From Candidatus Gottesmanbacteria bacterium (lineage in GTDB: Bacteria > Patescibacteriota > Microgenomatia > 2-02-FULL-39-11), in contig JACPZE010000044.1 of assembly GCA_016195685.1 (NCBI GenBank), positions 633-64,632 on the forward strand: a stretch of DNA of 64,000 nt, given 5' to 3'. Made by a program: the position numbers and the translations under genes. This document shows positions 3,709 to 25,468 of the stretch, one piece after another (positions within the stretch are counted from its first letter, which is position 1; the number at the start of each line of letters is the position of its first letter). A model generated the notes under the pieces. The model saw nothing but the letters and a program-made list of their open reading frames with translations, was not told the origin of the DNA and ran no database searches.

Positions 3709-3736
3709 TCATGAAGATAGAAAAGGTGGCCATAAA

Positions 3737-3772
3737 AAAACCAGGCGCCCTCAGGCGCCTGGTTTTCTCCAC
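3737..3772 (-). terminator. Rho-independent terminator downstream of the pilin gene
   Basis: GC hairpin ccaggcgcc-ctca-ggcgcctgg followed on the minus strand by a T-run (ttttttta). Confidence 0.6.
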
Positions 3773-3781
3773 TTTTATAAT

Positions 3782-4315: not shown

Positions 4316-5152
4316 TTATAGTTTAGGTTGATTTATAGCTCCATCATCAGTACTTGTGTTGTTCTGATTCATACCTGCAGAAGGAGAAGATATGTTATTG
4401 AAATTGTTCGTGGGTAATGTGGGTACTCTATTTATAAAAATTGTCGGAGTTGGTGTTGACTTGGGCGCTACCGAAGGGGAATATGATTTCAGGTAAAGTA
4501 TGATCAGTACCAACACCAAGACAAATAATATAGGTAGTAATAAGATAAGTGTGTGATTATCGCTCTTCATATCTGTTCTGTCCTTTTTATTTTGACTTTT
4601 GGGGTAAGAATTTTGATTCGTCAGGAGTGTATTTTGTTTCGCAAGATCAAATCTTTCAAGTATTATCCGTGCGATTGATACATCCAAGTTATCAGATACA
4701 GTTACATCCTTACCAAGTACAAAAATAGGGATGACCGATTCAATCACAAATCCTGCTTGTTCAAACGCATCGTTGACGGCGCGGTATAAATCCGCATTAG
4801 TTGCTACAAGTTTTGATCCGGTTGGAAGTTTATATATCTTAGTACTGCAATTTTCAAAAGGGACTGTATCAACGAATTTTTGCAGTTCACTGTCCTGGTG
4901 AAATTCCGGAGTCTGCGAAAATTCTTTTTCAAAATATACATGAGGGGAGAGTACGATCATCACTTGGGATGGTGTAATTTTATTATTATCTATAAATGAC
5001 TTGATTTGTAGATTAAAAGCAGCAGAATTCACCACGTCAAGGTCATTTACAAATTCTTTTGTGAATTGGAAAGTCAAAGCAGAAGACCGGTTGTGATCAT
5101 AATAGTTGATTTTATCCCGGTCTATAAAAATGACGCTTTTTTCAAAATTCAT
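4316..5152 (-). CDS. Hypothetical bitopic membrane protein in the pilus locus (possible assembly component)
   Basis: About 195-aa N-terminal domain, a single TM (TLILLLPILFVLVLVLIILYL) and an S/T/P/N-rich tail. No confident family match. Confidence 0.45.
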   Translation of the reverse strand: MNFEKSVIFIDRDKINYYDHNRSSALTFQFTKEFVNDLDVVNSAAFNLQIKSFIDNNKITPSQVMIVLSPHVYFEKEFSQTPEFHQDSELQKFVDTVPFENCSTKIYKLPTGSKLVATNADLYRAVNDAFEQAGFVIESVIPIFVLGKDVTVSDNLDVSIARIILERFDLAKQNTLLTNQNSYPKSQNKKDRTDMKSDNHTLILLLPILFVLVLVLIILYLKSYSPSVAPKSTPTPTIFINRVPTLPTNNFNNISSPSAGMNQNNTSTDDGAINQPKL

Positions 5153-8551: not shown

Positions 8552-9613
8552 CTATCTGGCGCCGATTTGCCCGATCATTCCATAAATTGGAGATAATATG
8601 GACATCATCATTCCGCCTACCAAAACTCCAACCACTACGAGTATCAAAGGTTCCATAAGAGTAGTAGTAGTATGAAGTGTTTTGGATACCTGATAATCTA
8701 AATATTCGGAAATATCCTGCATAGATTTGTCCAGAGAGCCGCTTTTTTCACCTGCTTCAGTGATTTTTATCATGATACTGGGAAAGATATTTTTGGCATC
8801 TTTAAAACCTTCTGATAGTTTTTTACCTGATAAGACTAAATCTTTACAGTGTCTTATAGCAGTAGCCACTTCATTTTTCGTCACGATATCGAAAGTCAGA
8901 TCCAATGCTGCTGTAATTGGTATTCCGGCATTTAACAGAAGGTAAAGGCTGCGGGTAAAGTTCGTCAAATCGATTTCCTTTGCTAATTCCCTAAGAAGCG
9001 GTATAGAGAATAATAAATTAATGATTAATTTTTTATTTCTTCTATAAAGGAAGATAAATCCAAATACTACAACCGTTATTATGGCGATAACGGGTATTGT
9101 CTGAGTAAGAAGGGTGTTAGAAGCAAACATCAAAATCCTGGTAGGCAACGGCAACTTCATTTTCATTCTCAGAAAAACTGATGAAATTTTGGGAATGACA
9201 AAAACAAGGATCATCAGAAGTACGCCTGCGAAGACAAACATGATGACCACAGGGTAGATAAGCGCTCCTTTCACTTTATCTGAGAACTCTGTTTGTTTTC
9301 TGATATTTTCTCTCAGATCTTTTAAGGTAACATCTAGTGTTCCTGCTTCTTCAGCCGCTCTAATGATATTTACAGTAACTTTATCAAAGACGTTCGGAAA
9401 TTTTGCAAATGAAGTATGGAGTTGTTCACCTTGAACTAAATCTGCTCGCAGAGTCTCAAGGATTTTCTTTTGGTTTCCTTTGGCATCTTCAAGAATAGAA
9501 TCAACTGTCTCCAGTATTGAGATACCGGCTGATAGCATGGTTGATAGATTGCTGATAAGACCAATTTTTTCAGTAGCAGAAAGACTGATATATTCTGTTT
9601 TAATTTCACTCAT
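8552..9613 (-). CDS. pilC: Type IV pilus platform protein PilC (GspF family)
   Basis: Two T2SS-F repeats with 3 TM helices; IYPVVIMFVFAGVLLMILVFVIPK is typical of the family. Confidence 0.9.
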   Translation of the reverse strand: MSEIKTEYISLSATEKIGLISNLSTMLSAGISILETVDSILEDAKGNQKKILETLRADLVQGEQLHTSFAKFPNVFDKVTVNIIRAAEEAGTLDVTLKDLRENIRKQTEFSDKVKGALIYPVVIMFVFAGVLLMILVFVIPKISSVFLRMKMKLPLPTRILMFASNTLLTQTIPVIAIITVVVFGFIFLYRRNKKLIINLLFSIPLLRELAKEIDLTNFTRSLYLLLNAGIPITAALDLTFDIVTKNEVATAIRHCKDLVLSGKKLSEGFKDAKNIFPSIMIKITEAGEKSGSLDKSMQDISEYLDYQVSKTLHTTTTLMEPLILVVVGVLVGGMMMSILSPIYGMIGQIGAR

Positions 9614-11295
9614 GATGATTCTACCTTTGTGACTCTTAGTACTTCTTCGATAGTGGTTGTCCCTTTGGCTACTTTTTGCAATCCGTCATCAAGCATGGTG
9701 GTCATGCCTTCTTGTATTGCGGCTCTAGCAATGACATCAGCGTCATTTTTCTCTGTGATAAGTTTTCTTATGTTTTTGGTGACTTCCAATACTTCAAATA
9801 CACCAATTCTTCCGGCATACCCAATATTGTGGCAAATTTTACAGCCCTTTCCTACATAAGTTTTTATTTCTACTGCCTCACCAAAATTTTTCTTTATGAT
9901 CTCGGAAGGGATATGTTTAGCTAGTTCTCCCGCTGTGATTGCTACTGATGTTTTGCACAGATCACAAATTTTACGGACCAGACGTTGGGCGATAATTACA
10001 TTCACTGTTGAAGCTACCAGGAAAGGTTCGACTTTCATATCGATAAGCCTGGGAAGAGTAGTGGCAGAATCATTGGTGTGAATAGTAGATAAAACCAAAT
10101 GTCCCGTAAGAGCAGCATTTACCGCAATGCCTGCAGTTTCGCTATCCCTTATCTCGCCTACAAAAACTATGTTTGGGTCTTGCCGAAGTATTGATCTAAG
10201 TCCCGAGGCGAATGTGAGATTTGTCTTGGGATTTGTCTGAATCTGGTTTACTCCTTTTATGCGATACTCAACTGGGTCTTCAATGGTTGTGATGTTTTTC
10301 TCTCGGGTGTTTAAAATTTTTAATATCGAATAAATAGAGGTAGTTTTTCCAGAACCTGTTGGACCTGTAGATAGTATCATTCCATAGGATTTCTTGGTAG
10401 CCGCGGTTACTTTTTTCAAGTCTTTTTCCTGCATCCCCAGATCAAGTAATGAAAATTGTCTGAATCGTGAAGAAAGAAGACGAAGTACGGCTTTTTCACC
10501 GTCAACCATGGGAAGAATTGAAACACGGATGTCCAAATTCTCCTCATCTAATTTCATACGGATTTTACCGTCTTGAGGAGCCATATGCTCATCTGTTCTC
10601 AGTTTAGATAGAACTTTGATTCTACTAATGACCCTTTCATGGAGGTTTTTGGGTAAAAATAATACATCGTGTAGGATACCGTCGATCCGAAACCTCACAA
10701 GTGAATTTCTTTCTTCAGCTTCTATGTGGATGTCTGATGCCTTATCCTGGTAGGCAAAATCTACAAGTAAATCAACGATTTTTGCAATTGGTGCTTCATC
10801 TATCACTAAGCTTCCTGTTTTTGTGATTTCCTCACTAAAGAGCCCTTCATAAGTTTTCTGCAACTCTTTTCTAAAAACATGGAAAGTATTAAAGATATCT
10901 CTTTCTGTAGCTAAATACGGAATAACTTTTTCAGAGGTTTTTTTAGAGATCATCTCCTGGATTTGACTGTTACCGGGGTCAGTCATTGCGAGTTTGATAC
11001 CGTATTCATCACGCGAGAAAGGAATGATTTTTTGTTTTCTGGCGATTTTTTCAGGAATTATTCTTACTACGTCATCGGGTATAGATATTTTAGAAAGGTT
11101 TATGAACGGAAGTTTAAGATAATTTGCTATCAGTTGTCCTAAATTTTCATCCGAAACAATATCCTTTTCTATCAAAGCATCGGCCAGAGTGATGTCTGAA
11201 TTTTTCGCAAATTCCATGACTTCAGCGAGTTTTATCTGAGTGGCAAGATTGTTTTCCAGGATAAGAGACTTTAATTGTTCATCAGAGATGATCAT
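9610..11295 (-). CDS. pilB: Type IV pilus assembly ATPase PilB (GspE family)
   Basis: Walker A GPTGSGKTT, the GspE C-terminal tetracysteine region (CDLC...GCKIC) and an N-terminal GspE_N domain. Confidence 0.92.
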   Translation of the reverse strand: MIISDEQLKSLILENNLATQIKLAEVMEFAKNSDITLADALIEKDIVSDENLGQLIANYLKLPFINLSKISIPDDVVRIIPEKIARKQKIIPFSRDEYGIKLAMTDPGNSQIQEMISKKTSEKVIPYLATERDIFNTFHVFRKELQKTYEGLFSEEITKTGSLVIDEAPIAKIVDLLVDFAYQDKASDIHIEAEERNSLVRFRIDGILHDVLFLPKNLHERVISRIKVLSKLRTDEHMAPQDGKIRMKLDEENLDIRVSILPMVDGEKAVLRLLSSRFRQFSLLDLGMQEKDLKKVTAATKKSYGMILSTGPTGSGKTTSIYSILKILNTREKNITTIEDPVEYRIKGVNQIQTNPKTNLTFASGLRSILRQDPNIVFVGEIRDSETAGIAVNAALTGHLVLSTIHTNDSATTLPRLIDMKVEPFLVASTVNVIIAQRLVRKICDLCKTSVAITAGELAKHIPSEIIKKNFGEAVEIKTYVGKGCKICHNIGYAGRIGVFEVLEVTKNIRKLITEKNDADVIARAAIQEGMTTMLDDGLQKVAKGTTTIEEVLRVTKVESS

Positions 11296-16233: not shown

Positions 16234-16236
16234 TTG

Positions 16237-16309
16237 TGGACCCGATCGGACTCGAACCGACCACCTTCGCAATGCGAATGCGACGCTCTACCAGATGAGC
16301 TACGGGCCC
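16237..16309 (-). tRNA. tRNA-Ala (anticodon CGC)
   Basis: Reverse complement folds as GGGCCCG-UA-GCUC-AUCUGGUA-GAGC-G-UCGCA-UUCGCAU-UGCGA-AGGUG-GUCGG-UUCGAGU-CCGAC-CGGGUCC-A. It has a G3:U70 pair; CCA is not encoded. Confidence 0.85.
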
Positions 16310-16414: not shown

Positions 16415-17110
16415 ATGAGATATAAAAATAATATTATTGCAAAAGCTAAAAAATTAAGAATGAGAGGTAAGACCTATACCGAAATTAAAAAGTATTTTAA
16501 ATTATCAATTCCCAAAAGTACCCTAGTTAGTTGGTTTAGAGATATAAAATTACCTAGGAATTATCCAGAGCGAATACGGAAATTAAACTTGGAGAATTTA
16601 AAAAAAGCAAGATTATTGCACATAAAAAAGAGTTTTGAGAGGAGAAAGAAATTACTAAAAACATATAAAGAAAAGAATAATGGTTTGATTAAAAAAGCGT
16701 CTGAAGTGGGCTATGCAAAAATTGGATTATCGATGCTCTGGTTAGGGGAAGGATCAAAGCAAAGAGGAGTTTTTAGAGTAGGCAGCTCAGATCCTAGAAT
16801 AGTTAAATTATTTTTGTGGTTTATTAAAAAATGTTACCAATTTGACTTATCAAAGGTCAGATGTACTCTGCAATGTAGAGCAGATCAAAATATACCTGAG
16901 CTAGAAAAATATTGGATAAATATTACAAATATTCCCAAAAGATTATTTTACAAAGCAAGAATTGATCCGAGGACAATTGGTAAACAAACAATTAATAAAG
17001 AATATAAAGGTGTATTAAGAGTAGATTATTTTGACGTTAAAATTCAGGACGAAATGGCAGTCATAGCTGATATGTTATATAATCAAACTTTACCAGGGCC
17101 CGAAGTTTAA
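16415..17110 (+). CDS. Hypothetical HTH-domain protein, possibly a degenerate LAGLIDADG-like C-terminal domain
   Basis: N-terminal resolvase/IS30-type HTH (RMRGKTYTEIKKYFKLSIPKSTLVSWFRDI). The C-terminal LSMLWLGEGSK...VFRV is a weak LAGLIDADG-like pattern. The ORF 3' end overlaps the downstream tRNA by 15 nt. Confidence 0.45.
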   Translation: MRYKNNIIAKAKKLRMRGKTYTEIKKYFKLSIPKSTLVSWFRDIKLPRNYPERIRKLNLENLKKARLLHIKKSFERRKKLLKTYKEKNNGLIKKASEVGYAKIGLSMLWLGEGSKQRGVFRVGSSDPRIVKLFLWFIKKCYQFDLSKVRCTLQCRADQNIPELEKYWINITNIPKRLFYKARIDPRTIGKQTINKEYKGVLRVDYFDVKIQDEMAVIADMLYNQTLPGPEV

Positions 17111-17168
17111 AAGGTTGAACATCTCGATGGCATCGAGAAGGCAAGGGGTTCGATTCCCCTCGGGTCCA
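17096..17168 (+). tRNA. tRNA-Ala (anticodon GGC), atypical A8
   Basis: Folds as GGGCCCG-AA-GUUU-AAAAGGUU-GAAC-A-UCUCG-AUGGCAU-CGAGA-AGGCA-AGGGG-UUCGAUU-CCCCU-CGGGUCC-A. It has a G3:U70 pair. Position 8 is A rather than the conserved U. Confidence 0.7.
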
Positions 17169-17246
17169 CAAATTAAAATGCGAGCTGTTGTAATGGATTC
17201 ATTTTCACTATGATTCAAAAAAAGGAGGTTCCCCAAGTCCTCTCTC

Positions 17247-18873: not shown

Positions 18874-20052
18874 CTAAAGTAGAAACTGTGCAGGAGAAAT
18901 CGAGGGGGTAGGTTCAGTATAATTTCCACTCATATCTGTCAGAACTTTATCAGGAGTAAGTGCGTAATTATATATACGTACCTCATCAATGATTCCGTTA
19001 TAAATATAGTTACCCCCGGCTCTGGATCCAATATTAGGAAAAACGTCGTTTTGAATTCCATCCTTCAGACTATCTACACTAATGTTTGATAGTTGTTCTT
19101 TTCCATCTAGGTATATTTTTACTCCTTGGGCTTTGCTAGATCCATCATACGTCATAGCTACATGATGCCAGAGATTATTATTTACCGGCGTCTGCCCGTA
19201 AACATAGATGGCATTATCGGACCAGGTGTTGATTAAATATACTCCCAGCTGGTTATTCTTGTTTATAAAAAATTCATACCCTCGATTTCCATGTTCATTC
19301 TCCATTTTGGAAAATATTGTACTTTCCTTATCCGTTTCTGCATACTTGATCCAAGATTCTATGGTAAAAGGGTTTGTCCTTTCAAAACTAAAATTTAGCT
19401 TATTACTAACCCAAATTGAACTATCCCATCCATTGAAAAGCCTCGCTTTCCCTATTTTGCCTGTGGTAAAAACGGTGCTTGTTGAACCGCTGATATTATT
19501 ATTCCCTGACATATCATATGCAGTGATCAAGTCTTTATCACTATCAAATGGCCAGTAAGCAACAAGTTGCGGAGGTTTCATTGGAGGAGGTTTGAGTGTA
19601 GGTGTGGGTAAATTCCGAATCAAAAAATCAGGTACAGTATACTCAATACAATCATACCCTTTCTTATGTTTCCACTGATCGTAATAAGAGGATGGGTAAG
19701 AATACCTGTCACTGATTGTATCATTAGAATCTGTAGAAAAATCGGTGCACAGTTTATACCCTTTGTCATTCAAAACAATATAATCATAATCTTTTCTTGT
19801 TTTTGGATCTTTAATCGCTACCTTTGATTTTAAATCTGTAAGTTGATTCGGTAATTTATAATTCGTGCTGAAGAACTTTTCTATCTCATACCTTATACTG
19901 CCAAAATCACTTAATCTGGTATTGTCGAATGATTTATCTCTTTGTGCAAACGGATTACCGACAATTGTTAAACCCAAAAGGACGACCGTAAATACGAGTA
20001 TTCCCAAGAATCCAATAAAAATATAATAATTACGCATTTGCATTCCTGTCAT
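18874..20052 (-). CDS. Membrane-anchored LamG (concanavalin A-like lectin) domain protein with a pilin-like N-terminal helix
   Basis: N-terminal TM with a pilin-like region following the TM (DNTRLSDFGSIRYEIEKFF) but no G-FTLIE motif. C-terminal LamG region KIGKARLFNGWDSSIWV...NNLWHHVAMTYDGSS...IDEVRIYNYALTPDKV. Confidence 0.65.
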   Translation of the reverse strand: MTGMQMRNYYIFIGFLGILVFTVVLLGLTIVGNPFAQRDKSFDNTRLSDFGSIRYEIEKFFSTNYKLPNQLTDLKSKVAIKDPKTRKDYDYIVLNDKGYKLCTDFSTDSNDTISDRYSYPSSYYDQWKHKKGYDCIEYTVPDFLIRNLPTPTLKPPPMKPPQLVAYWPFDSDKDLITAYDMSGNNNISGSTSTVFTTGKIGKARLFNGWDSSIWVSNKLNFSFERTNPFTIESWIKYAETDKESTIFSKMENEHGNRGYEFFINKNNQLGVYLINTWSDNAIYVYGQTPVNNNLWHHVAMTYDGSSKAQGVKIYLDGKEQLSNISVDSLKDGIQNDVFPNIGSRAGGNYIYNGIIDEVRIYNYALTPDKVLTDMSGNYTEPTPSISPAQFLL

Positions 20053-20701
20053 CTTTAATTTGATAAATGTAATAGCTAAAAATAATACTGCTTATTGCTA
20101 AAGTTACCAGCAGATGAAGTATGAAATTGGATGTAATGTTACCATTTAGTATTGTATAGACTGTAGAGATAATCTTGTATATAAATATGAGGAATGTCAC
20201 TACAAGAGTAAAATAAATTAGCATCTTTCTCGGCATTAAAGTTCTCAATATCGGATTTTCTATAGTCTTTCTAGTAATCCGTAAAAAGAAAAATGCAAAT
20301 AGTAGATAAGAGACAATTAGTGCTGCTAGATAAGCCCGTATAAGCGTTTGAAGAAACAAAGAAAAATAATCTTTAACACTATTAGGAGGTACTGCAAGAA
20401 CCCATTTGTCTATAAAAGCATGAAGCATCAATCCGAGCGAAGTAGCTAAAACATAAAGACTGATAAACATCAGTATATGTTCAAAAGTATCCCAATCCCA
20501 CATACTATTGTGTAAATTAATGGTTATATTATTATTAGAATTTGGCGGAACAGGAATTGCGGGTTGAACTTCATCTGTGAACCCTTTTTTAATTTCTTCT
20601 TCCTCCCAACCGACTTTAAGTAGAGAAGCAATAATTTGTTTCTTCGGGATTTTTTGTAATTTTGCCAGCTTTATATAATTGGTAATTGCTTCTTGTACCA
20701 T
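20030..20701 (-). CDS. Hypothetical 4-TM membrane protein, probably co-transcribed with the LamG protein (23-nt overlap)
   Basis: ORF with four hydrophobic segments and a cytoplasmic N-terminal domain. No family recognised. Confidence 0.55.
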   Translation of the reverse strand: MVQEAITNYIKLAKLQKIPKKQIIASLLKVGWEEEEIKKGFTDEVQPAIPVPPNSNNNITINLHNSMWDWDTFEHILMFISLYVLATSLGLMLHAFIDKWVLAVPPNSVKDYFSLFLQTLIRAYLAALIVSYLLFAFFFLRITRKTIENPILRTLMPRKMLIYFTLVVTFLIFIYKIISTVYTILNGNITSNFILHLLVTLAISSIIFSYYIYQIKDDRNANA

Positions 20702-20742
20702 TTATATCTACTATAAACTGGATTCAGAAGAAATGTCAATTT

Positions 20743-21114
20743 TTAAATTGTTGCATTACTATAAGCAAGCGGAAATTGCTGAAAAATAATCCTCCATTCC
20801 CTGAGTGTCTGAACACATCCATCTACAATCGAGTTCGAAAGAATGAAACGATAGTCCACATTTGTTGATGCGGAAGCCGCAATATCATTGATTATCTTGA
20901 ATGGAAGCCCTAAACTTGGGTTCGAAAAGCCATCAATATTAAAGATTACTCCTTTTGGGAAAATTAGCCTCTGGTATTTTGTCTTCGCTTCATAAAGAGC
21001 GTCATACCAAGCTAATTCTGGGGTTCTAATAAATGCAGTACCAAAATTAAGAAGTGCGTCTATCTCAAGCTCTTCTGTATAAGTCTCATTCAGGCTCATT
21101 TTGGCAAGAGTCAA
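20743..21114 (-). CDS. Hypothetical protein (123 aa) with a paralogous C-terminal fragment at 23338..23514
   Basis: ORF; its C-terminal 27 codons are conserved at the amino-acid level in a second copy 2.5 kb downstream. Confidence 0.45.
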   Translation of the reverse strand: MTLAKMSLNETYTEELEIDALLNFGTAFIRTPELAWYDALYEAKTKYQRLIFPKGVIFNIDGFSNPSLGLPFKIINDIAASASTNVDYRFILSNSIVDGCVQTLREWRIIFQQFPLAYSNATI

Positions 21115-21119
21115 TTTCT

Positions 21120-21293
21120 GTTCTCCTCGGCGATCTTAATGATGACGGGAAGGTGGACATCTTTGATTATAACCTCGTCATTACCAATTTTGGAAAAACT
21201 CATACTCCCAGAACGCTAAGCAGGGATGCAAACGGTGTTGCCAAAGTCGACATTTTTGATTATAATCAAGTGGTAACGTATTTTGGCACATGA
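21120..21293 (+). pseudogene. Orphan dockerin module fragment (two Ca-binding repeats) with no catalytic or signal region
   Basis: DLNDDGKVDIFDYNLVITNFGK...DANGVAKVDIFDYNQVVTYFG. GC-rich relative to its surroundings. It ends 3 nt before the next gene's ATG. Confidence 0.4.
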
Positions 21294-21296
21294 GCA

Positions 21297-22607
21297 ATGG
21301 ATCTTTTGAAGCACATCATTACAACTTTCGTACTCCTATTACTCCTGCGACCTCCAGTTGTGTTTGCCCAGTCATCGTCACTTCTTACCCTTATCAACAG
21401 TGGTAAATCACTCATGTTCATTGGCGCCCACGCCGACGACGCAAACATTGCAGCGCCACTTCTCGTCCGCGGCTGTGTGGCTAAAAAATCAAAGTGTACC
21501 ATTGTGTCGATTGACCGGGCAAAATCGCCAGACGGAACCCAAGTTGATACTGAGTTTCGCACCTATACGTATCTCCTCAATACGAACGGCGTTGGCTTGG
21601 GATATCCATCTGGTACGCAGGGGGCGGGATTTGATGGTAATCCAGAGATTGTTATTGCAAACTGGAAGGCCATAGGTGACGTTGAAGGTGATATTTTAGC
21701 ACTTATTAATCAAGAAAAACCTGATGTCGTTATCACGCAGGAACCGACTCACGGGGTCTATGGGCACCCAGATCATCGCGCCATTGGCAGGGTTGTCACC
21801 AATGTCTTTCAAAAGAACAGTATTAATGCTTACCTCTACTATCAAATCGTCCGTTACTCATCGATTTTAGGTGGTAATCTTGACCCATTGCCTATCACCG
21901 ATACCATTGACGAACGTGATCGACTACCCGAGCTCAATAATGAAACGCCGTGGAATACTGCCTTAGGCGCACTGAGAACGATCCGTTTCGACCCAGGCTT
22001 TTTCGATTTAATTGCCTCTATCCCATCAGACGAGCAAATAAGTTGGAATCGGCTCGTGCAAACACCACAACAACCAGAAACCAGTCCAACACCAACAAGC
22101 GCCCCGACAGCTACGTCCATTCTTCTGCCGGCAACCACCCCGACGAGCATTCCAACTCCAGGCGCAGGTATCAGCCTAACCCCCACACCTGCCTATTTTC
22201 CTGACGATATCAATCATGATGGAAAAGTCGATATCTTCGACTATAATCTCCTAGTCACCGACTTTGGCAAGACAGGTTCCCCAGGTTTTTCAAAAGCAGA
22301 TTTAAACAATGACGGTAAAGTGGATATGTCAGATTTTAATATATTTATGGCTAGCGTTAAAAATCAACTATCAGTTTCTCCTACACTCATCTTAGCTCCT
22401 ACGCCAACCTATATTCCGACGATAATTCCTTCTCACACGGTATCCTTAACATCATGTGCATATAAACCCAATGGTGCAATTTGCATTGTAAATAACCAAG
22501 CAGGAGTCTGCAGCCATCACCAGTGTATTCCTCCTAATCATCCCCAACCGACTTCACCACCTGTAGACTGTGATTCACCAAACTCACCTAAATATTGTAA
22601 TTATTAA
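21297..22607 (+). CDS. Secreted LmbE/PIG-L family (CE14) deacetylase with a C-terminal dockerin and a Cys-rich tail
   Basis: Signal peptide. GAHADDANIA and HGVYGHPDHRAIG are LmbE-like motifs. P/T-rich linkers. DDINHDGKVDIFDYNLLVTDFGK and DLNNDGKVDMSDFNIFM are dockerin repeats. The gene is clearly GC-richer than its flanks. Confidence 0.7.
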   Translation: MDLLKHIITTFVLLLLLRPPVVFAQSSSLLTLINSGKSLMFIGAHADDANIAAPLLVRGCVAKKSKCTIVSIDRAKSPDGTQVDTEFRTYTYLLNTNGVGLGYPSGTQGAGFDGNPEIVIANWKAIGDVEGDILALINQEKPDVVITQEPTHGVYGHPDHRAIGRVVTNVFQKNSINAYLYYQIVRYSSILGGNLDPLPITDTIDERDRLPELNNETPWNTALGALRTIRFDPGFFDLIASIPSDEQISWNRLVQTPQQPETSPTPTSAPTATSILLPATTPTSIPTPGAGISLTPTPAYFPDDINHDGKVDIFDYNLLVTDFGKTGSPGFSKADLNNDGKVDMSDFNIFMASVKNQLSVSPTLILAPTPTYIPTIIPSHTVSLTSCAYKPNGAICIVNNQAGVCSHHQCIPPNHPQPTSPPVDCDSPNSPKYCNY

Positions 22608-22616
22608 TGAATTAAT

Positions 22617-23282
22617 ATGTTGAAATTAAATCTTACAAAAAAATCATACACTACAGTGCTAATCTTACTTTTTCTTCTGGTGGGATTAGCCTCTACGGTG
22701 TATCTATCCATGTCATATCTGGATATCAGAAAGAAAGCATCATATTCCGGAGCAACACTTGAACTTATTCCAGCAAGTATCATTAAAAACACAGGGGATA
22801 CATTCACAGTGGGAGTAGCCGTAAACACAGGAGATGAGACTGTCTCTGGAGCAGATGTCCATATAATTTATGAGGCTGATAAACTTGAAGTTCAAAGTAT
22901 TACCCCCGGTAACTTTCTGCCTAATATCTTTTCAGCCGGAAACTTTGGAGGAGGTAATGCTTCAATTGCATTAGTCAGCCAACCCGATAAACCACAAAAA
23001 GGATCTGGTATATTAGCCTCTATCAATTTCAAAGTCTTATCTAGTACACCTACAGTCATAAATTTCTCCTCAAATACTAAGATAGCTGCAATAGGAAAGA
23101 CCACTAATGTACTTACCAGTACCCAGGCAGCTGTGATAAATACTCCTTTGGCCACCATCAGTTCTTCGTCTTTTGCTTCTCCTAGCAGCATAGTAACACC
23201 TTCAATTGTTTCACCAACCCTTGCTATTACTCCTACCCTTAAAGTTCCTAGCCCTACGTCTATCACACCAGGAGACGGATAA
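22617..23282 (+). CDS. Membrane-anchored cohesin-like domain protein with an S/T/P-rich C-terminus
   Basis: N-terminal TM anchor. ATLELIPASIIKNTGDTFTVGVAVNTGDETVSGADVHIIYEADKLEVQSITPGNF resembles the cohesin beta-sandwich pattern. Confidence 0.45.
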   Translation: MLKLNLTKKSYTTVLILLFLLVGLASTVYLSMSYLDIRKKASYSGATLELIPASIIKNTGDTFTVGVAVNTGDETVSGADVHIIYEADKLEVQSITPGNFLPNIFSAGNFGGGNASIALVSQPDKPQKGSGILASINFKVLSSTPTVINFSSNTKIAAIGKTTNVLTSTQAAVINTPLATISSSSFASPSSIVTPSIVSPTLAITPTLKVPSPTSITPGDG

Positions 23283-23337
23283 CTCTGATAGATTAATACC
23301 AGGGGGGGTAAGGAATAGAATCTTCTTCGGTACAAAT

Positions 23338-23514
23338 TACAGAGTGTAAACCAAATTTAGTGGATACTGCTGGAAAACAATCCTCCAATCCTTTAAAGTC
23401 TGTATCAAATCATCTATAATCTGGTTCGTAAGGACTAAACGATAGTCCACTGAAAAATTTCTGATGAAATTTTCCAGTGCAAGCACAATAAAGGTGATTT
23501 TTTCGGTGTAAACA
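23338..23514 (-). pseudogene. 5'-truncated paralog fragment of the 20743..21114 gene (C-terminal about 58 codons, no start)
   Basis: The minus-strand frame ...SVDYRLVLTNQIIDDLIQTLKDWRIVFQQYPL...* aligns with ...NVDYRFILSNSIVDGCVQTLREWRIIFQQFPL...* of the full gene. Nucleotide identity is about 75% over 82 nt, with conservative amino-acid substitutions. Confidence 0.5.
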
Positions 23515-23523
23515 CATTATTTT

Positions 23524-23558
23524 TTCTCACACAAGTAATTTCCCATAACTGATATATT
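23524..23558 (-). pseudogene. Duplicated remnant of the carbamoyltransferase 3' end (encodes ...ISVMGNYLCEKK*)
   Basis: 31/34 nt identical to 25475..25508, which encodes the genuine C-terminus ILVMGNYVCEK* of the carbamoyltransferase. The two copies flank the 615-aa gene as direct repeats. Confidence 0.55.
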
Positions 23559-23620
23559 ACCAAAACTTTATACGTCTTGAAAATGTTGACAATGCAGATT
23601 CTTATTCTTATTCTGGTTAT

Positions 23621-25468
23621 ATGAAGTCTTTTCCCAAAATAAGTACAGTAGGAATTTTTCTAATACTTTTAATTTCGACGATTCTTCTTATTTCAGGATT
23701 TGCAATAGGGTATAAAACTTCACGAACAGATATATTCTCAAGAGCAGAATCTGGCCTAGCTCCGACTCCGCCTGCTTCACAATACGGAAGTATATCAGGT
23801 ACAATCACTATAGATAAAAATGTCTATGACAGTCTGGATAAATCGAGATCACTGGTAGTTTCTTCCTGTGATGTTGTACCTAAACCAACTATTGATCCCC
23901 AGGATCAGTTTCAGAAAGAAAATACTGTTGATATAAAAGATAAATATCTGGATTGTCCTAGAAATAATTGGTTTTTAGTATCCTTGGTTAAACCGGCAAA
24001 GTTTGAATATAATAAATATATTTTTCGGTATAACTTAGATAAAGTACCAATCGGAACCAGGGGAATCACTCTTCTCTCCTATTATTTTACTTCCAGAGAT
24101 GAAATTGTAGGAATTCTTTTTCCAGATAAAACAACGATAGAATCGCAAAATTGTGAGCTATTTGAAACTGACTATAAACAAGATTGTACATTAAGTATTG
24201 ATCAGGGAAGTGAGGTTAAACTGGATTATAAAATTTCTAAATCTGCCAGTAATGAAGTAAATAATGAATTATATCTTTATTCTTTGATTGGGAAAGATAA
24301 TAAAGTAGCATTAAACAAATGGTTGGAAAAAGCAGATAAGGAGACGTATAACCAGGCATTATCACTTATTACTTCTTCAGTGATAAATGTGAAGATTGAA
24401 AAAAATGAAGATTATAAACCTGTCTATTTCATCATAAAAGAGGCTGTATATGATTATCTTTTATCAAATCCAGGAAAAAACGTAATATATAAGTCAACCC
24501 GGAAAGATGAAAATTATTATAATGCGATTGCCACAAGCGGTATGTACAATATTCTACAACGCAGTTGGATGCCGGAAACAGTTGCGGGTCATATATTTGT
24601 AGCGGAACTTTTACCTACGTATTTTAAAAACTTCGGATCAATGGAAAATTACATACTTAAATATTCTGCACATATATATCCTACTTATTATCCGGGTTAT
24701 ATCCTTCAGGGAAGCGGGTTATATACTTATCTAAAAGATAAAATCATGCAAAGATTTGGTATAGATGATAAACGTTTTGCAGATATAACTCTCAGCATCA
24801 TCTATAACCGTTATAATCAAAAGGCAGAGGATGTAGAGATTATAGATGTAATTGAAGATGAAGCAAAAAACTGGGTAGAAGACAGTAAATCTTTTATAGT
24901 TGAAGAATATGATAAAAGTAATGAGCCAATCAGCACTTCGACAATACTGAGGTATTATCTGGAAAAAAACAACGGTAATCTTTCAGAATCATTGTGGGAT
25001 GTGGCAATCCTTTACAAGATTCTTGTGCGCTTCGATCATTTTGATAATACTCCATTATTTATTGTTAAACCTGATACTATTGAAACTAAATTTTCCGTAG
25101 AAAAAGCAAGTAAAGTCGCAGGTTTTACAGCAAAATATATAAAAGATGAGTTTACTAAAGTAAATAATTTTAATTCACTCAAGCAAAATTTAGATACAAA
25201 TGCCTCAGGAAATGAATCGGAAATTTATTATGACCCTAATAATCCGGAAATATCATTAGTGAATCAAGTAGGTAACGCCTATCGAAAAATGAACACGATT
25301 TCTTTACTAGTGTCGTACCCGCCAAATTTCTTGAAATTTCTTATGGTTGTGGAGAGTCAGTATAAAGGAGATGTTCATGGAATTGTAAAAAAAGAAGTTG
25401 ATTATGATGCAGCTCTATCCTTGGATGAAGTAGATAGTTATCTACAGTCATTTCTAAATAGTCCTTAA
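23621..25468 (+). CDS. Large secreted/membrane-anchored hypothetical protein (615 aa); no recognised domain
   Basis: N-terminal TM/signal (ISTVGIFLILLISTILLISGFAIG). Putative promoter TTGACA at 23588. Flanked by about 35-40-bp direct repeats. Confidence 0.6.
   Translation: MKSFPKISTVGIFLILLISTILLISGFAIGYKTSRTDIFSRAESGLAPTPPASQYGSISGTITIDKNVYDSLDKSRSLVVSSCDVVPKPTIDPQDQFQKENTVDIKDKYLDCPRNNWFLVSLVKPAKFEYNKYIFRYNLDKVPIGTRGITLLSYYFTSRDEIVGILFPDKTTIESQNCELFETDYKQDCTLSIDQGSEVKLDYKISKSASNEVNNELYLYSLIGKDNKVALNKWLEKADKETYNQALSLITSSVINVKIEKNEDYKPVYFIIKEAVYDYLLSNPGKNVIYKSTRKDENYYNAIATSGMYNILQRSWMPETVAGHIFVAELLPTYFKNFGSMENYILKYSAHIYPTYYPGYILQGSGLYTYLKDKIMQRFGIDDKRFADITLSIIYNRYNQKAEDVEIIDVIEDEAKNWVEDSKSFIVEEYDKSNEPISTSTILRYYLEKNNGNLSESLWDVAILYKILVRFDHFDNTPLFIVKPDTIETKFSVEKASKVAGFTAKYIKDEFTKVNNFNSLKQNLDTNASGNESEIYYDPNNPEISLVNQVGNAYRKMNTISLLVSYPPNFLKFLMVVESQYKGDVHGIVKKEVDYDAALSLDEVDSYLQSFLNSP

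What the first reader, a model, noticed from the sequence alone, without database searches (positions are those of the whole stretch)
21115..23282. GC-rich islet with a cohesin-dockerin pair: secreted dockerin-bearing LmbE/CE14 deacetylase next to a membrane-anchored cohesin-like protein
The 21115-22610 segment is visibly GC-richer than the rest of the window, and multiple spurious ORFs arise there on both strands. It encodes a signal-peptide LmbE-family deacetylase with two dockerin Ca-binding repeats. Just upstream lies an orphan, complete dockerin module with no catalytic part (21120-21293). The next gene, of native low GC, is a TM-anchored protein whose ectodomain fits a cohesin beta-sandwich pattern. 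Together these would tether a carbohydrate deacetylase to the cell surface in a minimal cellulosome-style display. This is unusual for a reduced-genome lineage and looks horizontally acquired.
Basis: partly seen in the sequence, partly recalled or inferred. Interest (0 to 1): 0.7.

Follow-up and report, generated by a model that had tools for sequence, protein, structure and literature searches.

The report
Membrane-anchored cohesin with dockerin-tagged deacetylase
An ultra-small Gottesmanbacteria (CPR) bacterium carries a secreted sugar deacetylase with a dockerin "plug" beside a membrane-anchored cohesin "socket". This enzyme-docking kit turns out to be common in the lineage, but here the enzyme part looks foreign and the cluster sits among relics of a mobile element.

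Summary
21297-22607 encodes a signal-peptide PIG-L/LmbE (CE14-like) deacetylase with an intact metal/catalytic motif set and a two-repeat type I dockerin. 21129-21293 is an orphan dockerin. 22617-23282 encodes an N-terminally membrane-anchored cohesin, supported by Pfam at 45 bits and by an AlphaFold model whose 41 best PDB matches are all cohesins.

Two corrections apply.
- Cohesin and dockerin are not exotic here. The same TM-cohesin family and a very conserved dockerin family recur in Gottesmanbacteria, Woesebacteria and other Patescibacteria. They often sit in the same order (dockerin enzyme, then cohesin), and one operon has 4 dockerin enzymes plus 3 cohesins.
- Only the catalytic module plus linker (21297-22196) is compositionally foreign. 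It is the GC maximum of the window (0.487 against 0.364) and its codon-usage z is -6. The dockerin, the C-terminal tail and the cohesin gene are native.

One new point: the islet is bracketed by relics of a tRNA-targeting large serine recombinase element (20743-21129 and 23337-23456). The orphan dockerin is a 5'-truncated gene remnant fused directly to the recombinase relic.

Physical cohesin-dockerin binding and the enzyme's substrate remain inferred. I rate this a new variant of a known kind, of moderate interest.

The parts
20743..21129 (-). Relic of a large serine recombinase (LSR) gene. Only the C-terminal ~120 aa remain, of a protein that is ~514-560 aa when intact. The last ~38 codons (20746-20862) form the 'R1' tail segment.
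   Evidence: tblastn with full-length LSRs aligns their residues ~412-501 to 21123-20854 at 57-67% identity. Full-length relatives carry Resolvase (85 bits), Recombinase and Zn_ribbon_recom domains. Homology to P0043 begins at residue 70 at nt 21129.
21129..21293 (+). Orphan dockerin, the 5'-truncated remnant of a dockerin-bearing gene (nominal ORF 21054-21293). The first Ca loop is intact (DLNDDGKVD) and the second is degenerate (DANGVAKVD). It has no signal peptide and no linker, and it abuts the LSR relic with no spacer.
   Evidence: Pfam Dockerin_1 23.6 bits against a cut-off of 22.9. The lineage-specific dockerin HMM gives 73.3 bits, E 8e-22. Sequence; junction.
21238..21266 (+). Sigma-70-like promoter match (TTGCCA-17-TATAAT, 11/12) inside the orphan dockerin, about 30 nt upstream of the deacetylase ATG.
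   Evidence: Consensus scan only; function not shown.
21297..21368 (+). Signal peptide of the deacetylase (residues 1-24, MDLLKHIITTFVLLLLLRPPVVFA|QSS).
   Evidence: Sequence. The hydrophobic maximum lies at residues 6-24. The cleavage site is inferred from the A-x-A-like VFA.
21369..22058 (+). PIG-L/LmbE (CE14-like) zinc deacetylase catalytic module. Motifs are AHADD (residues 44-48: His45, Asp47, Asp48) and HPDH (157-160: His157, His160). Composition is foreign.
   Evidence: Pfam PIG-L 36.3 bits over residues 40-170. A profile of the subfamily hits MshB 1q74 (6.5e-17) and diacetylchitobiose deacetylase 8bgn (1e-16). The invariant columns are H, D, D, H, H. GC 0.471, GC3 0.450; codon-usage z -5.96.
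22059..22202 (+). Pro/Thr/Ser/Ala-rich linker (residues 255-302), GC 0.59.
   Evidence: Sequence composition is 71% P/T/S/A; GC.
22206..22361 (+). Type I-like dockerin with two repeats (DINHDGKVD 304-312 and DLNNDGKVD 335-343). Codon usage is native.
   Evidence: Pfam Dockerin_1 30.6 bits. Lineage HMM 89.8 bits. Best PDB sequence hit is 2y3n_B, a cellulosomal GH48 dockerin, E 1.3e-5. Codon z -0.13.
22362..22607 (+). C-terminal Pro/Thr stretch plus a 6-Cys module (residues 356-436) and the stop codon. No family assignment.
   Evidence: Sequence; no Pfam hit in this stretch.
22617..22739 (+). N-terminus of the cohesin protein: cytoplasmic Lys-rich stub, TM helix (residues ~13-35) and the conserved juxtamembrane motif DIRKKA (36-41).
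   Evidence: Hydrophobic maximum at residues 12-32. AlphaFold predicts a helix over 8-43. The motif Q/D-E/D-I/V-R-K/S/T-K/R-A is conserved in the family.
22752..23141 (+). Cohesin beta-sandwich (residues 46-175).
   Evidence: Pfam Cohesin 45.3 bits. AlphaFold block-mean pLDDT is 85-97 for residues 51-170. Foldseek PDB hits 1-41 are all cohesins; the best is 6kgf_C (E 3.8e-10, TM 0.76, rmsd 2.2 A).
23142..23282 (+). Disordered Pro/Thr/Ser tail (residues 176-221) ending ...TPGDG*. This is exactly where relatives begin a C-terminal dockerin ('PGDLD...'), so the gene may have lost a dockerin.
   Evidence: Alignments with P0016, P0036, P0060 and P0061. Low pLDDT. Cohesin-only relatives also exist (L004 190 aa, L039 212 aa, L046 177 aa).
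23337..23456 (-). 'R2': an isolated second copy of the 35-39-codon tail segment that follows the LSR relic on the left (92 nt, 75% DNA identity to 20768-20859). It has no recombinase body upstream.
   Evidence: Direct repeat D2; DNA alignment; tblastn with the R peptides.
17096..17169 (+). tRNA-Ala(GGC), a candidate former integration target of the decayed element(s). Its orientation relative to the LSR relic matches that of the LSR-tRNA junctions in other genomes. This link is speculative.
   Evidence: ARAGORN and Rfam. The LSR fragment P0046 from another contig runs into a tRNA-Ala-like sequence that matches 17169-17131. LSR genes abut antisense tRNA genes in 12 loci.

Best explanation
This is a two-gene enzyme-display module of a Candidatus Gottesmanbacteria (CPR/Patescibacteria) genome.

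How it most likely works:
- The first gene makes a Sec-secreted, zinc-dependent PIG-L/LmbE-type (CE14-like) de-N-acetylase. It carries a Pro/Thr linker, a Ca-binding two-repeat dockerin and a small Cys-rich tail.
- The next gene starts 9 nt downstream in the same frame and orientation. It makes a type II membrane protein: an N-terminal TM anchor, then a single cohesin directly at the membrane surface, then a disordered Pro/Thr/Ser tail.
- The most likely mechanism (inferred) is that the dockerin plugs into the cohesin in a Ca-dependent way. The deacetylase would then be held at the cell surface or wall zone instead of diffusing away. There it would remove acetyl groups from an N-acetyl-hexosamine-containing glycan or oligosaccharide of host or environmental origin.

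Where it came from:
- The docking parts are native to the lineage. The same TM-cohesin family and a very conserved dockerin family occur in many Gottesmanbacteria, Woesebacteria and other Patescibacteria genomes. In those genomes the dockerins sit on beta-helix/pectate-lyase-like, GH39, GH141, GHL15, DUF4434, polysaccharide-lyase and discoidin proteins.
- The window's locus is the minimal form of that system.
- Only the catalytic module and linker are compositionally foreign. This suggests a laterally acquired PIG-L module was fused to a resident dockerin.
- The cluster lies between relics of tRNA-targeting large-serine-recombinase integrative elements. The orphan dockerin upstream is the 3' stump of another dockerin-bearing gene, cut off by the same rearrangement that truncated the recombinase gene.

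Shown: domain identities, fold, catalytic motifs, composition, junctions and conserved neighbourhood. Inferred: binding, topology, substrate and the order of evolutionary events.
For: Domains:
- PIG-L, Dockerin_1 (twice) and Cohesin all score above Pfam gathering cut-offs.
- The cohesin fold is supported by an AlphaFold model (block-mean pLDDT 85-97 across the beta-sandwich). Foldseek PDB hits 1-41 are all cohesins, best TM 0.76-0.78 to type I cohesins.
- The dockerin's best PDB sequence hit is a cellulosomal dockerin. A dockerin HMM built from CPR homologues scores 89.8 and 73.3 bits for the two window copies and finds nothing else in the 64 kb.
- Catalytic His45/Asp47/Asp48 and His157/His160 are conserved and invariant in the subfamily alignment. 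The subfamily profile hits MshB and diacetylchitobiose deacetylase at ~1e-16 to 1e-17.

Native status of the docking parts:
- 39 of the 41 hits match only the linker/dockerin portion (9-28% of the query). Every one that carries an organism name is Gottesmanbacteria or Patescibacteria, including HY029_01150 from the same MAG.
- TM-cohesin relatives occur in 13 GTDB species genomes.

Conserved gene order (dockerin enzyme, then cohesin):
- L008: 12-nt gap between the two genes.
- L004/L017: GH39 plus 3 cohesins.
- L039: dockerin followed by a TM-cohesin-only protein.
- L046: 4 dockerin enzymes followed by 3 cohesins in one co-oriented run.

Foreign catalytic module:
- The segment is the GC maximum of the window. 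GC3 is 0.45 against 0.32 +/- 0.04.
- Codon-usage z is -5.96, against a native range of -3.2 to about +3. The dockerin plus tail give -0.13 and the cohesin gene +1.37.
- An exhaustive HMMER search of 1.84 billion representatives finds only 2 relatives below 1e-30 (41-44% identity). The ten best cluster look-ups return no CPR organism name; most hits are unnamed metagenomic proteins and the only organism named is an archaeon. The first homology search returned a relative from a 69% GC genome.

Mobile-element relics.

Assembly is reproducible.
Against: - No direct or computed test of cohesin-dockerin binding was possible. The structure tool folds single chains and returns no coordinates or PAE, so the natural cohesin-dockerin fusion P0016 gave no interface information.
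- Cellulosomal experience shows that adjacency does not guarantee cognate specificity.
- The window enzyme and its closest relative P0063 lack the T-x-G-E-x-G loop and a near-invariant Arg found in the rest of the subfamily alignment. The substrate may therefore not be a classical GlcNAc conjugate.
- The cohesin sits about 5-10 residues from the membrane. The enzyme would be held inside the wall zone rather than exposed.
- The second dockerin repeat (MSDFNIF) departs from the family's IFDYN consensus.
- Donor lineage is unresolved: the best relatives are only 41-44% identical and unnamed.
- The cohesin gene may itself be a truncated form (it ends TPGDG*).
- No transcription data are available.
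Confidence: 0.6

Rival explanations
1. The domains are real but the neighbours are not partners. The deacetylase's dockerin binds a different cohesin elsewhere in the genome or a non-cohesin ligand. The adjacent cohesin recruits other dockerin proteins such as HY029_01150. Adjacency would then reflect common ancestry of a cluster, not a cognate pair.
For: - The same MAG has at least one more dockerin protein (P0005 = HY029_01150).
- Related clusters hold several cohesins and several dockerins of at least two subtypes: the KVDIFDYN type and a Cys-containing type on P0060/P0061. A specificity code therefore probably exists.
- The second repeat of the window dockerin is atypical.
Against: - In 64 kb there is exactly one cohesin and one intact dockerin gene. 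They are 9 nt apart and co-oriented.
- The same order recurs in at least four other genomes.
- The enzyme-borne dockerin family is extremely conserved. This argues for a common cohesin partner type.
Confidence: 0.2
2. The cluster is decaying cargo of a dead mobile element and no longer functions. Signs would be the orphan dockerin stump, a cohesin gene that lost its dockerin, and a deacetylase with a deleted substrate loop.
For: - The recombinase relic and the R2 relic flank the cluster.
- The orphan dockerin is a stump with a degenerate second loop.
- The cohesin ORF ends at 'PGDG*', where relatives start a dockerin.
- The TRGExG loop is missing.
Against: - Both long ORFs are intact (436 and 221 aa), with a signal peptide or TM anchor. 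All catalytic and metal residues and both Ca loops are present.
- The shortened loop is shared with the closest relative P0063, so it is a subfamily trait and not decay.
- Cohesin-only TM proteins with Pro/Thr tails are normal family members.
- The cohesin gene has fully native codon usage.
Confidence: 0.1
3. The GC-rich stretch is not foreign. It reflects amino-acid content (Ala/Gly/Pro/Arg-rich catalytic domain and Pro/Thr linker) of a vertically inherited gene.
For: - GC1 and GC2 are also raised (0.52 and 0.44).
- The linker's GC of 0.59 is explained by Pro/Thr/Ala codons.
- Two other genes in the window reach GC3 of ~0.41.
Against: - The codon-usage test conditions on amino-acid content and still gives z = -5.96. 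That is well outside the native spread (minimum -3.22).
- GC3 of 0.45 is 3.3 sd above the gene mean.
- The deviation stops at the dockerin boundary within the same ORF.
- No CPR-named relative of the catalytic module appeared in the exhaustive search.
Confidence: 0.1
4. The repeats are generic EF-hand or thrombospondin-type Ca motifs and the ectodomain is a generic beta-sandwich adhesin. In that case there is no cohesin-dockerin system. A related worry is that the segment is an assembly chimera.
For: Weak sub-threshold hits to EF-hand and FG-GAP models overlap the repeats. A mitochondrial-carrier EF-hand is the second PDB sequence hit.
Against: - Dockerin_1 is the only Ca-motif model above its cut-off.
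- The lineage dockerin HMM scores 73-90 bits.
- The cohesin HMM scores 45 bits and 41 straight cohesin structures head the fold search.
- Independent assemblies are identical.
Confidence: 0.03

Closest known systems
Type I cohesin-dockerin pairs of clostridial cellulosomes (C. thermocellum CipA-enzyme 1ohz, C. cellulolyticum 2vn5/1g1k, C. acetobutylicum CaCohA2-Doc0917 6kgf)
   Same: The fold is a cohesin beta-sandwich (TM 0.73-0.78, rmsd 2.1-2.8 A). The dockerin has two ~22-residue Ca-loop/helix repeats. The logic is also the same: a secreted enzyme carrying a dockerin, encoded beside a cohesin protein.
   Different: There is a single cohesin and no multi-cohesin scaffoldin, CBM, SLH or sortase anchor. 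Anchoring is by an N-terminal TM helix with a conserved juxtamembrane motif. The cargo is a PIG-L deacetylase rather than a cellulase. The host is a reduced-genome CPR bacterium. Sequence identity to solved cohesins is only 14-21%.
Non-cellulosomal cohesin/dockerin modules (Archaeoglobus fulgidus cohesin 2xdh; Clostridium perfringens glycosidase/toxin cohesins 2jh2, 2vo8, 2w1n). Their wide distribution outside cellulosomes is established knowledge (Peer et al. 2009, cited from memory).
   Same: Cohesin and dockerin are used as a general protein-docking pair, outside cellulose degradation, in organisms without cellulosomes. These structures appear among the fold hits.
   Different: Here the pair is organised as a lineage-wide gene-cluster type with a membrane anchor and a varied set of glycan-active cargo enzymes. 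I found no description of it for CPR in the searched literature.
Single-cohesin, membrane-helix 'non-SLH anchoring scaffoldins' and minimal cellulosome-like systems in Firmicutes (PMC11557425; Cellulosilyticum lentocellum, PMC13487519)
   Same: One cohesin per protein, a predicted TM helix as anchor, few components, and not necessarily cellulolytic.
   Different: The Firmicutes proteins carry C-terminal TM helices and type II cohesins (PMC11557425). The CPR family has an N-terminal anchor, a type I-like cohesin and often its own C-terminal dockerin.
PIG-L/LmbE/CE14 deacetylases: MshB (1q74, 4ewl), archaeal diacetylchitobiose deacetylase (3wl4, 8bgn), LnmX, TT1542, BshB
   Same: The Pfam family is the same. 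His-x-Asp-Asp and His-x-x-His metal/catalytic motifs are present.
   Different: Known members are cytoplasmic single-domain enzymes. This one is secreted and fused to a linker, a dockerin and a Cys-rich tail. It lacks the T-x-G-E-x-G loop and Arg conserved in its wider subfamily. It belongs to a sparse clade of secreted or lipoprotein PIG-L proteins; P0063 carries Big_7 and TIG domains.
Essential dockerin-domain envelope protein SEML1_0315 of Saccharibacteria (PMC10633639)
   Same: A dockerin-bearing cell-envelope protein in a CPR bacterium, suggested to act on host glycans.
   Different: No cohesin partner or enzyme-cohesin gene pair was described there, and the class of CPR is different.
tRNA-targeting large serine recombinase integrative elements
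   Same: The flanking relic belongs to an LSR family whose intact members (514-560 aa, with Resolvase, Recombinase and Zn-ribbon domains) end exactly at an antisense tRNA gene in 12 loci.
   Different: In the window only ~120 C-terminal codons survive. They are followed by the 'R' tail instead of a tRNA. A second isolated R copy lies on the other side of the islet.

Membership tests
Cohesin (PF00963) | Sequence matches the family HMM above the curated threshold | tested here: met
   45.3 bits against a cut-off of 24.1, residues 57-170
Cohesin (PF00963) | Nine-stranded jelly-roll beta-sandwich fold | tested here: met
   AlphaFold model with block-mean pLDDT 85-97 for residues 51-170. Foldseek PDB ranks 1-41 are all cohesins, best E 3.8e-10, TM 0.76-0.78.
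Cohesin (PF00963) | Binds a dockerin, Ca-dependently | not testable with these tools
   Only single chains can be folded and no coordinates or PAE are returned. This needs AF-Multimer or biochemistry.
Dockerin type I (PF00404) | HMM match above threshold, and better than generic EF-hand models | tested here: met
   Deacetylase dockerin 30.6 bits and orphan 23.6 bits against a cut-off of 22.9. EF-hand and FG-GAP models are all below their cut-offs. Best PDB hit is a cellulosomal dockerin, 2y3n_B.
Dockerin type I (PF00404) | Duplicated ~22-residue segment, each with a D-x-N/D-x-D-G-x-x-D Ca loop followed by a helix | tested here: met
   DINHDGKVD (304-312) and DLNNDGKVD (335-343). In the orphan copy the second loop is degenerate (DANGVAKVD). 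For the family member P0016, AlphaFold predicts two confident helices.
PIG-L / LmbE / CE14 deacetylase (PF02585) | HMM match above threshold | tested here: met
   36.3 bits against a cut-off of 28.2, residues 40-170. The subfamily profile hits MshB and diacetylchitobiose deacetylase at ~1e-16 to 1e-17.
PIG-L / LmbE / CE14 deacetylase (PF02585) | Metal-binding and catalytic residues: His and two Asp in A-H-x-D-D, two His in H-x-D-H | tested here: met
   AHADD 44-48 and HPDH 157-160. These columns are invariant in alignment A6.
PIG-L / LmbE / CE14 deacetylase (PF02585) | T-x-G-E-x-G loop and conserved Arg. Their role in sugar binding is known from MshB-type enzymes and is recalled from memory. 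| tested here: not met
   The window protein and its closest relative P0063 have a shortened, different loop here. The substrate may therefore differ; activity was not tested.
Cellulosome (sensu stricto) | Scaffoldin with two or more cohesins, dockerin-bearing cellulases/hemicellulases and a cellulose-binding CBM (criteria as used in PMC11557425) | tested here: not met
   The window has one cohesin, one intact dockerin enzyme (a deacetylase) and no CBM. It works like a cellulosome anchor-enzyme pair but is not a cellulosome.
CPR TM-cohesin / conserved-dockerin gene-cluster type (defined here) | N-terminal TM, Q/D-E/D-I/V-R-x-K/R-A motif and cohesin, encoded next to genes with the GD(L/I)NxDGKVDIFDYN-type dockerin | tested here: met
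   Family alignment. Dockerin family. Neighbourhoods in L008, L004/L017, L021, L039 and L046.
Large serine recombinase integrative element | Intact recombinase (Resolvase + Recombinase + Zn ribbon) next to its attachment site | tested here: not met
   Only residues ~412-501 of the recombinase survive. The element is dead, and the relics serve only as evidence of past integration or rearrangement.

The most novel reading that the evidence does not exclude
Gottesmanbacteria and related Microgenomates-type CPR bacteria possess a lineage-wide, modular cohesin-dockerin surface-assembly system. Its parts would be membrane anchors, secreted cohesin-dockerin adaptors and a swappable set of glycan-active enzymes. 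It would be a 'CPR mini-cellulosome' aimed at host or environmental glycans rather than cellulose. New catalytic modules would be recruited by fusion to the resident dockerin and shuffled by tRNA-targeting serine-recombinase elements. The window would show one such recruitment, a foreign CE14-type deacetylase caught in the act.
Probability: 0.4. Interest if true: 0.65.

Novelty: new variant of a known kind. Interest (0 to 1): 0.5.

Why it matters
CPR/Patescibacteria are ultra-small, mostly episymbiotic bacteria with reduced genomes, and how they organise their cell surface to exploit hosts or polymers is largely unknown. A plug-and-socket enzyme display system would give a concrete, testable surface mechanism for a major uncultured lineage. 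Here it is anchored by a TM helix and reused with many glycan-active enzymes across Gottesmanbacteria and their relatives. It would also provide compact new cohesin-dockerin pairs for protein engineering. The locus further illustrates domain-level gene transfer, a foreign catalytic module on a native dockerin, in a lineage usually discussed in terms of gene loss. On the other hand, cohesin and dockerin domains are long known outside cellulosomes, both genes hit standard Pfam models, and one is already annotated as a PIG-L deacetylase. This is an extension of known biology, not a new principle.

Tried and rejected
1. Exact look-up of the deacetylase gene in the contig index found nothing. The cluster look-up later identified it as MBI3380293.1.
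2. I tried a pseudo-complex for structure prediction by translating straight through dockerin, stop codons and cohesin (same frame). The tools refuse translations containing stops.
3. I then folded the natural cohesin-dockerin fusion P0016. Both modules are confident, but the tool gives no coordinates or PAE, so intramolecular docking could not be judged.
4. PHROGs and NCBIfam gave nothing useful for the cohesin protein, the recombinase relic or the 615-aa neighbour.
5. tblastn of the recombinase fragment against the phage collection gave no match.
6. Donor identification for the PIG-L module failed. The exhaustive search gave only 41-44% relatives without organism names. P0001 comes from a 69% GC genome but is only 36-38% identical.
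7. Circular-permutation idea: the orphan dockerin at the left end might be the missing C-terminal dockerin of the cohesin gene at the right end. The break points match ('...TPGD|G*' and 'LLGD|LNDDG...'). However, the cohesin's closest relatives (P0060, P0061) carry a different, Cys-containing dockerin subtype, and cohesin-only relatives exist. The idea stays open and is not adopted.
8. I considered whether the R repeat is a tRNA fragment. It has no T-arm complementarity and ARAGORN and Rfam find nothing there.
9. No second recombinase relic lies near tRNA-Ala. The 'tandem element integrated at tRNA-Ala' model therefore remains a hypothesis.
10. A look-up of the second dockerin protein of the same MAG (P0005) found no contig on record.
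A 5-sequence alignment worked.

Full report
**Source and observation**

The window comes from a Candidatus Gottesmanbacteria MAG with locus tags HY029_06070 to HY029_06095 around the finding. GenBank names the 436-aa product 'PIG-L family deacetylase' (MBI3380293.1) and the 221-aa product 'hypothetical protein' (MBI3380294.1).

- 21054-21293 (+), 79 aa.
- 21297-22607 (+), 436 aa.
- 22617-23282 (+), 221 aa.

Several overlapping stop-free ORFs lie on both strands inside 21266-22204.

The GC rise is real and is the strongest in the window. The 900-nt window 21297-22196 has GC 0.487, against a mean of 0.364 (sd 0.032). The next independent peak is 0.443, and 0.09% of windows reach this value.

The anomaly is narrower than reported:

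| Segment | GC | GC3 |
|---|---|---|
| Signal peptide + catalytic module | 0.471 | 0.450 |
| Pro/Thr linker | 0.592 | 0.475 |
| Dockerin | 0.364 | 0.345 |
| Cys-rich tail | 0.407 | 0.256 |
| Cohesin gene | 0.396 | 0.288 |
| Window genes (mean ± sd) | 0.363 ± 0.037 | 0.321 ± 0.039 |

I also ran a codon-usage test that conditions on amino-acid content:
- Catalytic part: z = -5.96.
- 49 other genes: mean -0.05, sd 1.44, minimum -3.22.
- Dockerin plus tail: z = -0.13.
- Cohesin gene: z = +1.37.

Independent per-run assemblies reproduce 19795-22525 and 22332-24189 at 100% identity. The composition break and both islet junctions are therefore not assembly artefacts.

**What the three ORFs are**

Pfam places all parts above gathering thresholds:

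| Domain | Residues | Bits | Cut-off |
|---|---|---|---|
| PIG-L | 40-170 | 36.3 | 28.2 |
| Dockerin_1 (deacetylase) | 304-349 | 30.6 | 22.9 |
| Dockerin_1 (orphan) | 25-76 | 23.6 | 22.9 |
| Cohesin | 57-170 | 45.3 | 24.1 |

EF-hand and FG-GAP models overlap the repeats but stay below their cut-offs.

The deacetylase (436 aa):
- It starts with a signal peptide (MDLLKHIITTFVLLLLLRPPVVFA|QSS).
- It keeps the PIG-L metal/catalytic set, AHADD (44-48) and HPDH (157-160). These columns are invariant in an alignment with nine relatives.
- A profile of that alignment hits MshB (1q74, 6.5e-17) and archaeal diacetylchitobiose deacetylase (8bgn, 1e-16).
- It lacks the T-R-G-E-x-G loop, two Cys and a near-invariant Arg present in the wider subfamily. 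It shares this shortened loop with its closest relative P0063 (42-44% identity). The loop is therefore a clade trait, not decay.

The dockerin:
- It has two canonical Ca loops, DINHDGKVD and DLNNDGKVD.
- Its best solved-structure sequence match is the cellulosomal GH48 dockerin 2y3n_B (E 1.3e-5).

The cohesin protein (221 aa):
- It has a Lys-rich N-terminal stub, a ~23-residue hydrophobic helix, the motif DIRKKA, the cohesin module and a Pro/Thr/Ser tail.
- An AlphaFold model built on a 7-sequence alignment has mean pLDDT 80. It predicts a helix over residues 8-43 and a beta-sandwich over 46-175, with block-mean pLDDT of 85-97 across residues 51-170.
- In the Foldseek search of the PDB, ranks 1-41 are all cohesins. 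The best are type I cohesins of C. acetobutylicum, C. cellulolyticum and C. thermocellum (E down to 3.8e-10, TM 0.73-0.78, rmsd 2.1-2.8 A). The non-cellulosomal Archaeoglobus cohesin 2xdh also appears.

**The system is native to the lineage**

The homology search with the deacetylase returned 41 proteins. Of these, 39 match only the linker/dockerin part, covering 9-28% of the query. Every hit that carries an organism name is Gottesmanbacteria or 'Patescibacteria group', including HY029_01150 from the same MAG.

These proteins share a strikingly conserved dockerin: GD(L/I)NxDGKVDIFDYNLLVxxFGKTGSPGFxxADINxDGKVDIFDYNILVxNFGK. It is attached to a varied set of modules:
- Beta-helix / pectate-lyase-like.
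- GH141.
- GH39.
- GHL15.
- DUF4434.
- Polysaccharide lyase.
- Discoidin.

An HMM built from these dockerins scores the two window copies at 89.8 and 73.3 bits. It finds no other dockerin in the 64 kb, and a cohesin HMM finds only the one cohesin.

The cohesin protein belongs to a family with an N-terminal TM helix, the motif Q/D-E/D-I/V-R-K/S/T-K/R-A, a cohesin, a Pro/Thr linker and usually a C-terminal dockerin. Members include P0060, P0061, P0016, P0036 and P0027; P0062 has an Ig-like domain instead of the dockerin.

A scan of GTDB species genomes found 13 loci in Gottesmanbacteria, Woesebacteria and 'Patescibacteria group' MAGs. Some MAG records are labelled 'uncultured Gammaproteobacteria'.

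**Conserved gene neighbourhood**

The window's gene order (dockerin enzyme, then TM-cohesin) recurs in other genomes:
- L008: a 512-aa dockerin protein, a 12-nt gap, then the TM-cohesin-dockerin protein P0060.
- L004/L017 (a 1.02-Mb Gottesmanbacteria contig): a GH39 with a weak dockerin, then three cohesin proteins.
- L021: three consecutive cohesin genes, one with a dockerin.
- L039: a dockerin-ending ORF, a 44-nt gap, then a 212-aa TM-cohesin-only protein with a Pro-rich tail. This is the closest architectural twin of the window pair.
- L046 (Patescibacteria GCA_040753135.1): one co-oriented run containing pseudopilin/LamG genes, four dockerin enzymes (dockerin scores 71-92 bits) and three cohesin proteins. 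The cohesins are a 177-aa TM-anchored one, a 234-aa secreted cohesin-dockerin adaptor and a 259-aa secreted one.

This conservation is the main evidence, short of biochemistry, that the dockerin enzymes and the cohesin proteins work together. The window holds the minimal version: one anchor and one enzyme.

**Origin of the catalytic module**

An exhaustive HMMER search of 1.84 billion representatives with the catalytic module found only 2 proteins below 1e-30 (P0063, P0064; 41-44% identity). Nine fall below 1e-10 and 180 below 1e-3.
- The ten best cluster look-ups return no CPR organism name. Most hits are unnamed metagenomic proteins and the only organism named is an archaeon.
- P0063 is a secreted Big_7 + TIG + PIG-L protein.
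- P0001 (36-38% identity) lies in a 69% GC genome, with gene GC3 of 0.92.

Together with the composition break at the linker/dockerin boundary, the best reading is that a foreign secreted PIG-L module was joined to a resident dockerin. The donor cannot be named.

The 123-aa minus-strand ORF at 20743-21114 is the C-terminal ~120 residues of a large serine recombinase.
- Relatives fetched from metagenomes are 514-560 aa. They carry Resolvase (85 bits), Recombinase and Zn-ribbon domains.
- Their residues ~412-501 align to 21123-20854 at 57-67% identity.
- In 12 loci the recombinase ORF ends exactly at an antisense tRNA gene (Lys, Glu, Leu or Ile). These are tRNA-targeting integrative elements.

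In the window the recombinase relic is followed by a 35-39-codon tail, 'R1' (VDYRFILSN...IFQQFPL).
- A second, isolated copy, 'R2' (23337-23456, same strand), lies on the other side of the islet. It shares 75% DNA identity over 92 nt and its substitutions are conservative.
- R also follows the recombinase fragment in L022.
- In L038/L039 R occurs as an orphan, in the arrangement R, then a 395-aa gene, then a decayed recombinase, then tRNA-Ile. A dockerin/cohesin pair sits 1.3 kb upstream of R there.

The left junction is sharp. Recombinase homology ends at nt 21129 and dockerin homology ('GDLNDDGKVD') begins at 21129 on the other strand.
- The orphan dockerin is therefore the 3' stump of a dockerin-bearing gene.
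- It was cut by the same event that removed ~390 codons of the recombinase.
- Its second Ca loop is degenerate (DANGVAKVD), and it has no linker, signal peptide or credible start.

One model fits the layout, read on the minus strand:
- The order is R2, then [cohesin, deacetylase, dockerin stump], then recombinase relic, then R1, then [DUF5671, LamG pseudopilin-like and other genes], then tRNA-Ala(GGC) at 17096-17169.
- This would be a decayed tandem or composite integrative element at tRNA-Ala.
- A recombinase fragment from another contig (P0046) runs into a tRNA-Ala-like sequence matching 17169-17131.
- This model is inference. No second recombinase relic was found near the tRNA.

**Mechanism proposed**

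Shown:
- A secretion signal.
- An intact catalytic and metal motif set.
- An intact dockerin.
- A TM-anchored cohesin fold.
- Tight co-oriented gene spacing (3 nt and 9 nt).
- A conserved neighbourhood.
- A promoter-like site (TTGCCA-17-TATAAT) at 21238-21266, inside the dockerin stump (consensus match only).

Inferred:
- The enzyme is exported and binds Ca2+.
- It docks on the membrane-proximal cohesin and de-N-acetylates an amino-sugar substrate close to the cell.
- In an organism with little biosynthetic capacity, this would keep the enzyme and its products at its own surface or at a host contact.

The missing sugar-binding loop means the substrate should not be assumed to be that of MshB or chitobiose deacetylase.

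The cohesin ORF ends '...TPGDG*', where relatives begin their dockerin ('PGDLD...'). It may therefore be a 3'-truncated cohesin-dockerin gene. Cohesin-only relatives exist, however, so I leave this at roughly even odds.

**Comparison with the known, and novelty**

The locus works like an anchoring-scaffoldin/enzyme pair of a cellulosome. It is not a cellulosome, because it has one cohesin, no CBM and no cellulase.
- Non-cellulosomal cohesin/dockerin modules are long known. Fold hits include the Archaeoglobus and C. perfringens cohesins.
- Single-cohesin proteins with TM helices are reported in Firmicutes (PMC11557425).
- A dockerin-domain envelope protein is essential in a Saccharibacterium (PMC10633639).
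- In the searched library, no paper combines Gottesmanbacteria, Microgenomates or Woesebacteria with dockerin or cohesin. The CPR papers that mention these domains do so only in passing.

The variant features are:
- An N-terminal TM anchor with a conserved juxtamembrane motif.
- A lineage-specific, highly conserved dockerin.
- A CE14-type cargo.
- Domain-level acquisition.
- A context of mobile-element relics.

I rate it a new variant of a known kind, with interest 0.5.

Noticed in passing
window 22722-22739 (cohesin protein residues 36-41) and 23621-25468 (615-aa protein, residues ~34-42); also P0016, P0036, P0060, P0061, P0062: A conserved motif sits directly after the N-terminal TM helix. 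It reads Q/D/T-E/D-I/V-R/F-K/S/T-K/R-A (DIRKKA, QEIRKKA, QEVRTRA, TDIFSRA). It occurs in the whole TM-cohesin family and also in the unrelated 615-aa neighbour, which has no Pfam match. It could be a sorting or processing signal of CPR surface proteins. No library model covers it.
   Followed up: partly
loci L024-L036 (LSR ORF ends at ~4480, tRNA at ~4478-4561 on the opposite strand); window 20746-20862 and 23337-23456; L022 968-1084; L038/L039 2191-2289: In this large-serine-recombinase family the ORF's last codons differ by context. They are read from an antisense tRNA gene in 12 integrated copies, or from a conserved 35-codon 'R' segment in others. Orphan R copies lie at the far end of decayed elements. 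This suggests that attP lies inside the 3' end of the recombinase gene. Integration would then swap the enzyme's C-terminal tail.
   Followed up: partly
window 22362-22604 (deacetylase residues 356-436): After the dockerin, where most family members end, this protein continues with a Pro/Thr stretch and a 6-Cys module (C-x8-C-x8-C-x4-C-x15-C-x8-C). It has no family match. P0060 and P0061 have a different 4-Cys spacer before their Cys-containing dockerin subtype.
   Followed up: no
window 16236-16309 (-) and 17096-17169 (+): Two tRNA-Ala genes (CGC and GGC) lie in divergent orientation about 800 nt apart, flanking a 231-aa ORF with very low GC3 (0.237). The tRNA-Ala(GGC) matches the tail of an LSR fragment from another contig (P0046).
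   Followed up: partly
window 8552-11295 and 18874-20052; L046 1-6157: Type IV pilus / T2SS-like genes (a secretion ATPase at 9610-11295) and a LamG (Laminin_G_3, TafC-like) protein with an N-terminal hydrophobic segment lie near the cohesin/dockerin genes. The same is true in the window and in the large L046 operon, where LamG and pseudopilin genes directly precede the dockerin enzymes. This hints at a linked surface-appendage and enzyme-display neighbourhood.
   Followed up: no
window 2743-4231: Two other genes (2743-3708 and 3782-4231, minus strand) have raised GC3 (~0.41) and deviant codon usage (z -2.2 and -3.2). They are the next most atypical genes in the window.
   Followed up: no
L009-L021 record titles: Several GTDB-representative MAGs that carry the CPR-type TM-cohesin family are titled 'uncultured Gammaproteobacteria bacterium' (binchicken/SRP co-assemblies). 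This is probably a placeholder or mislabel in the records and not a true proteobacterial occurrence.
   Followed up: no
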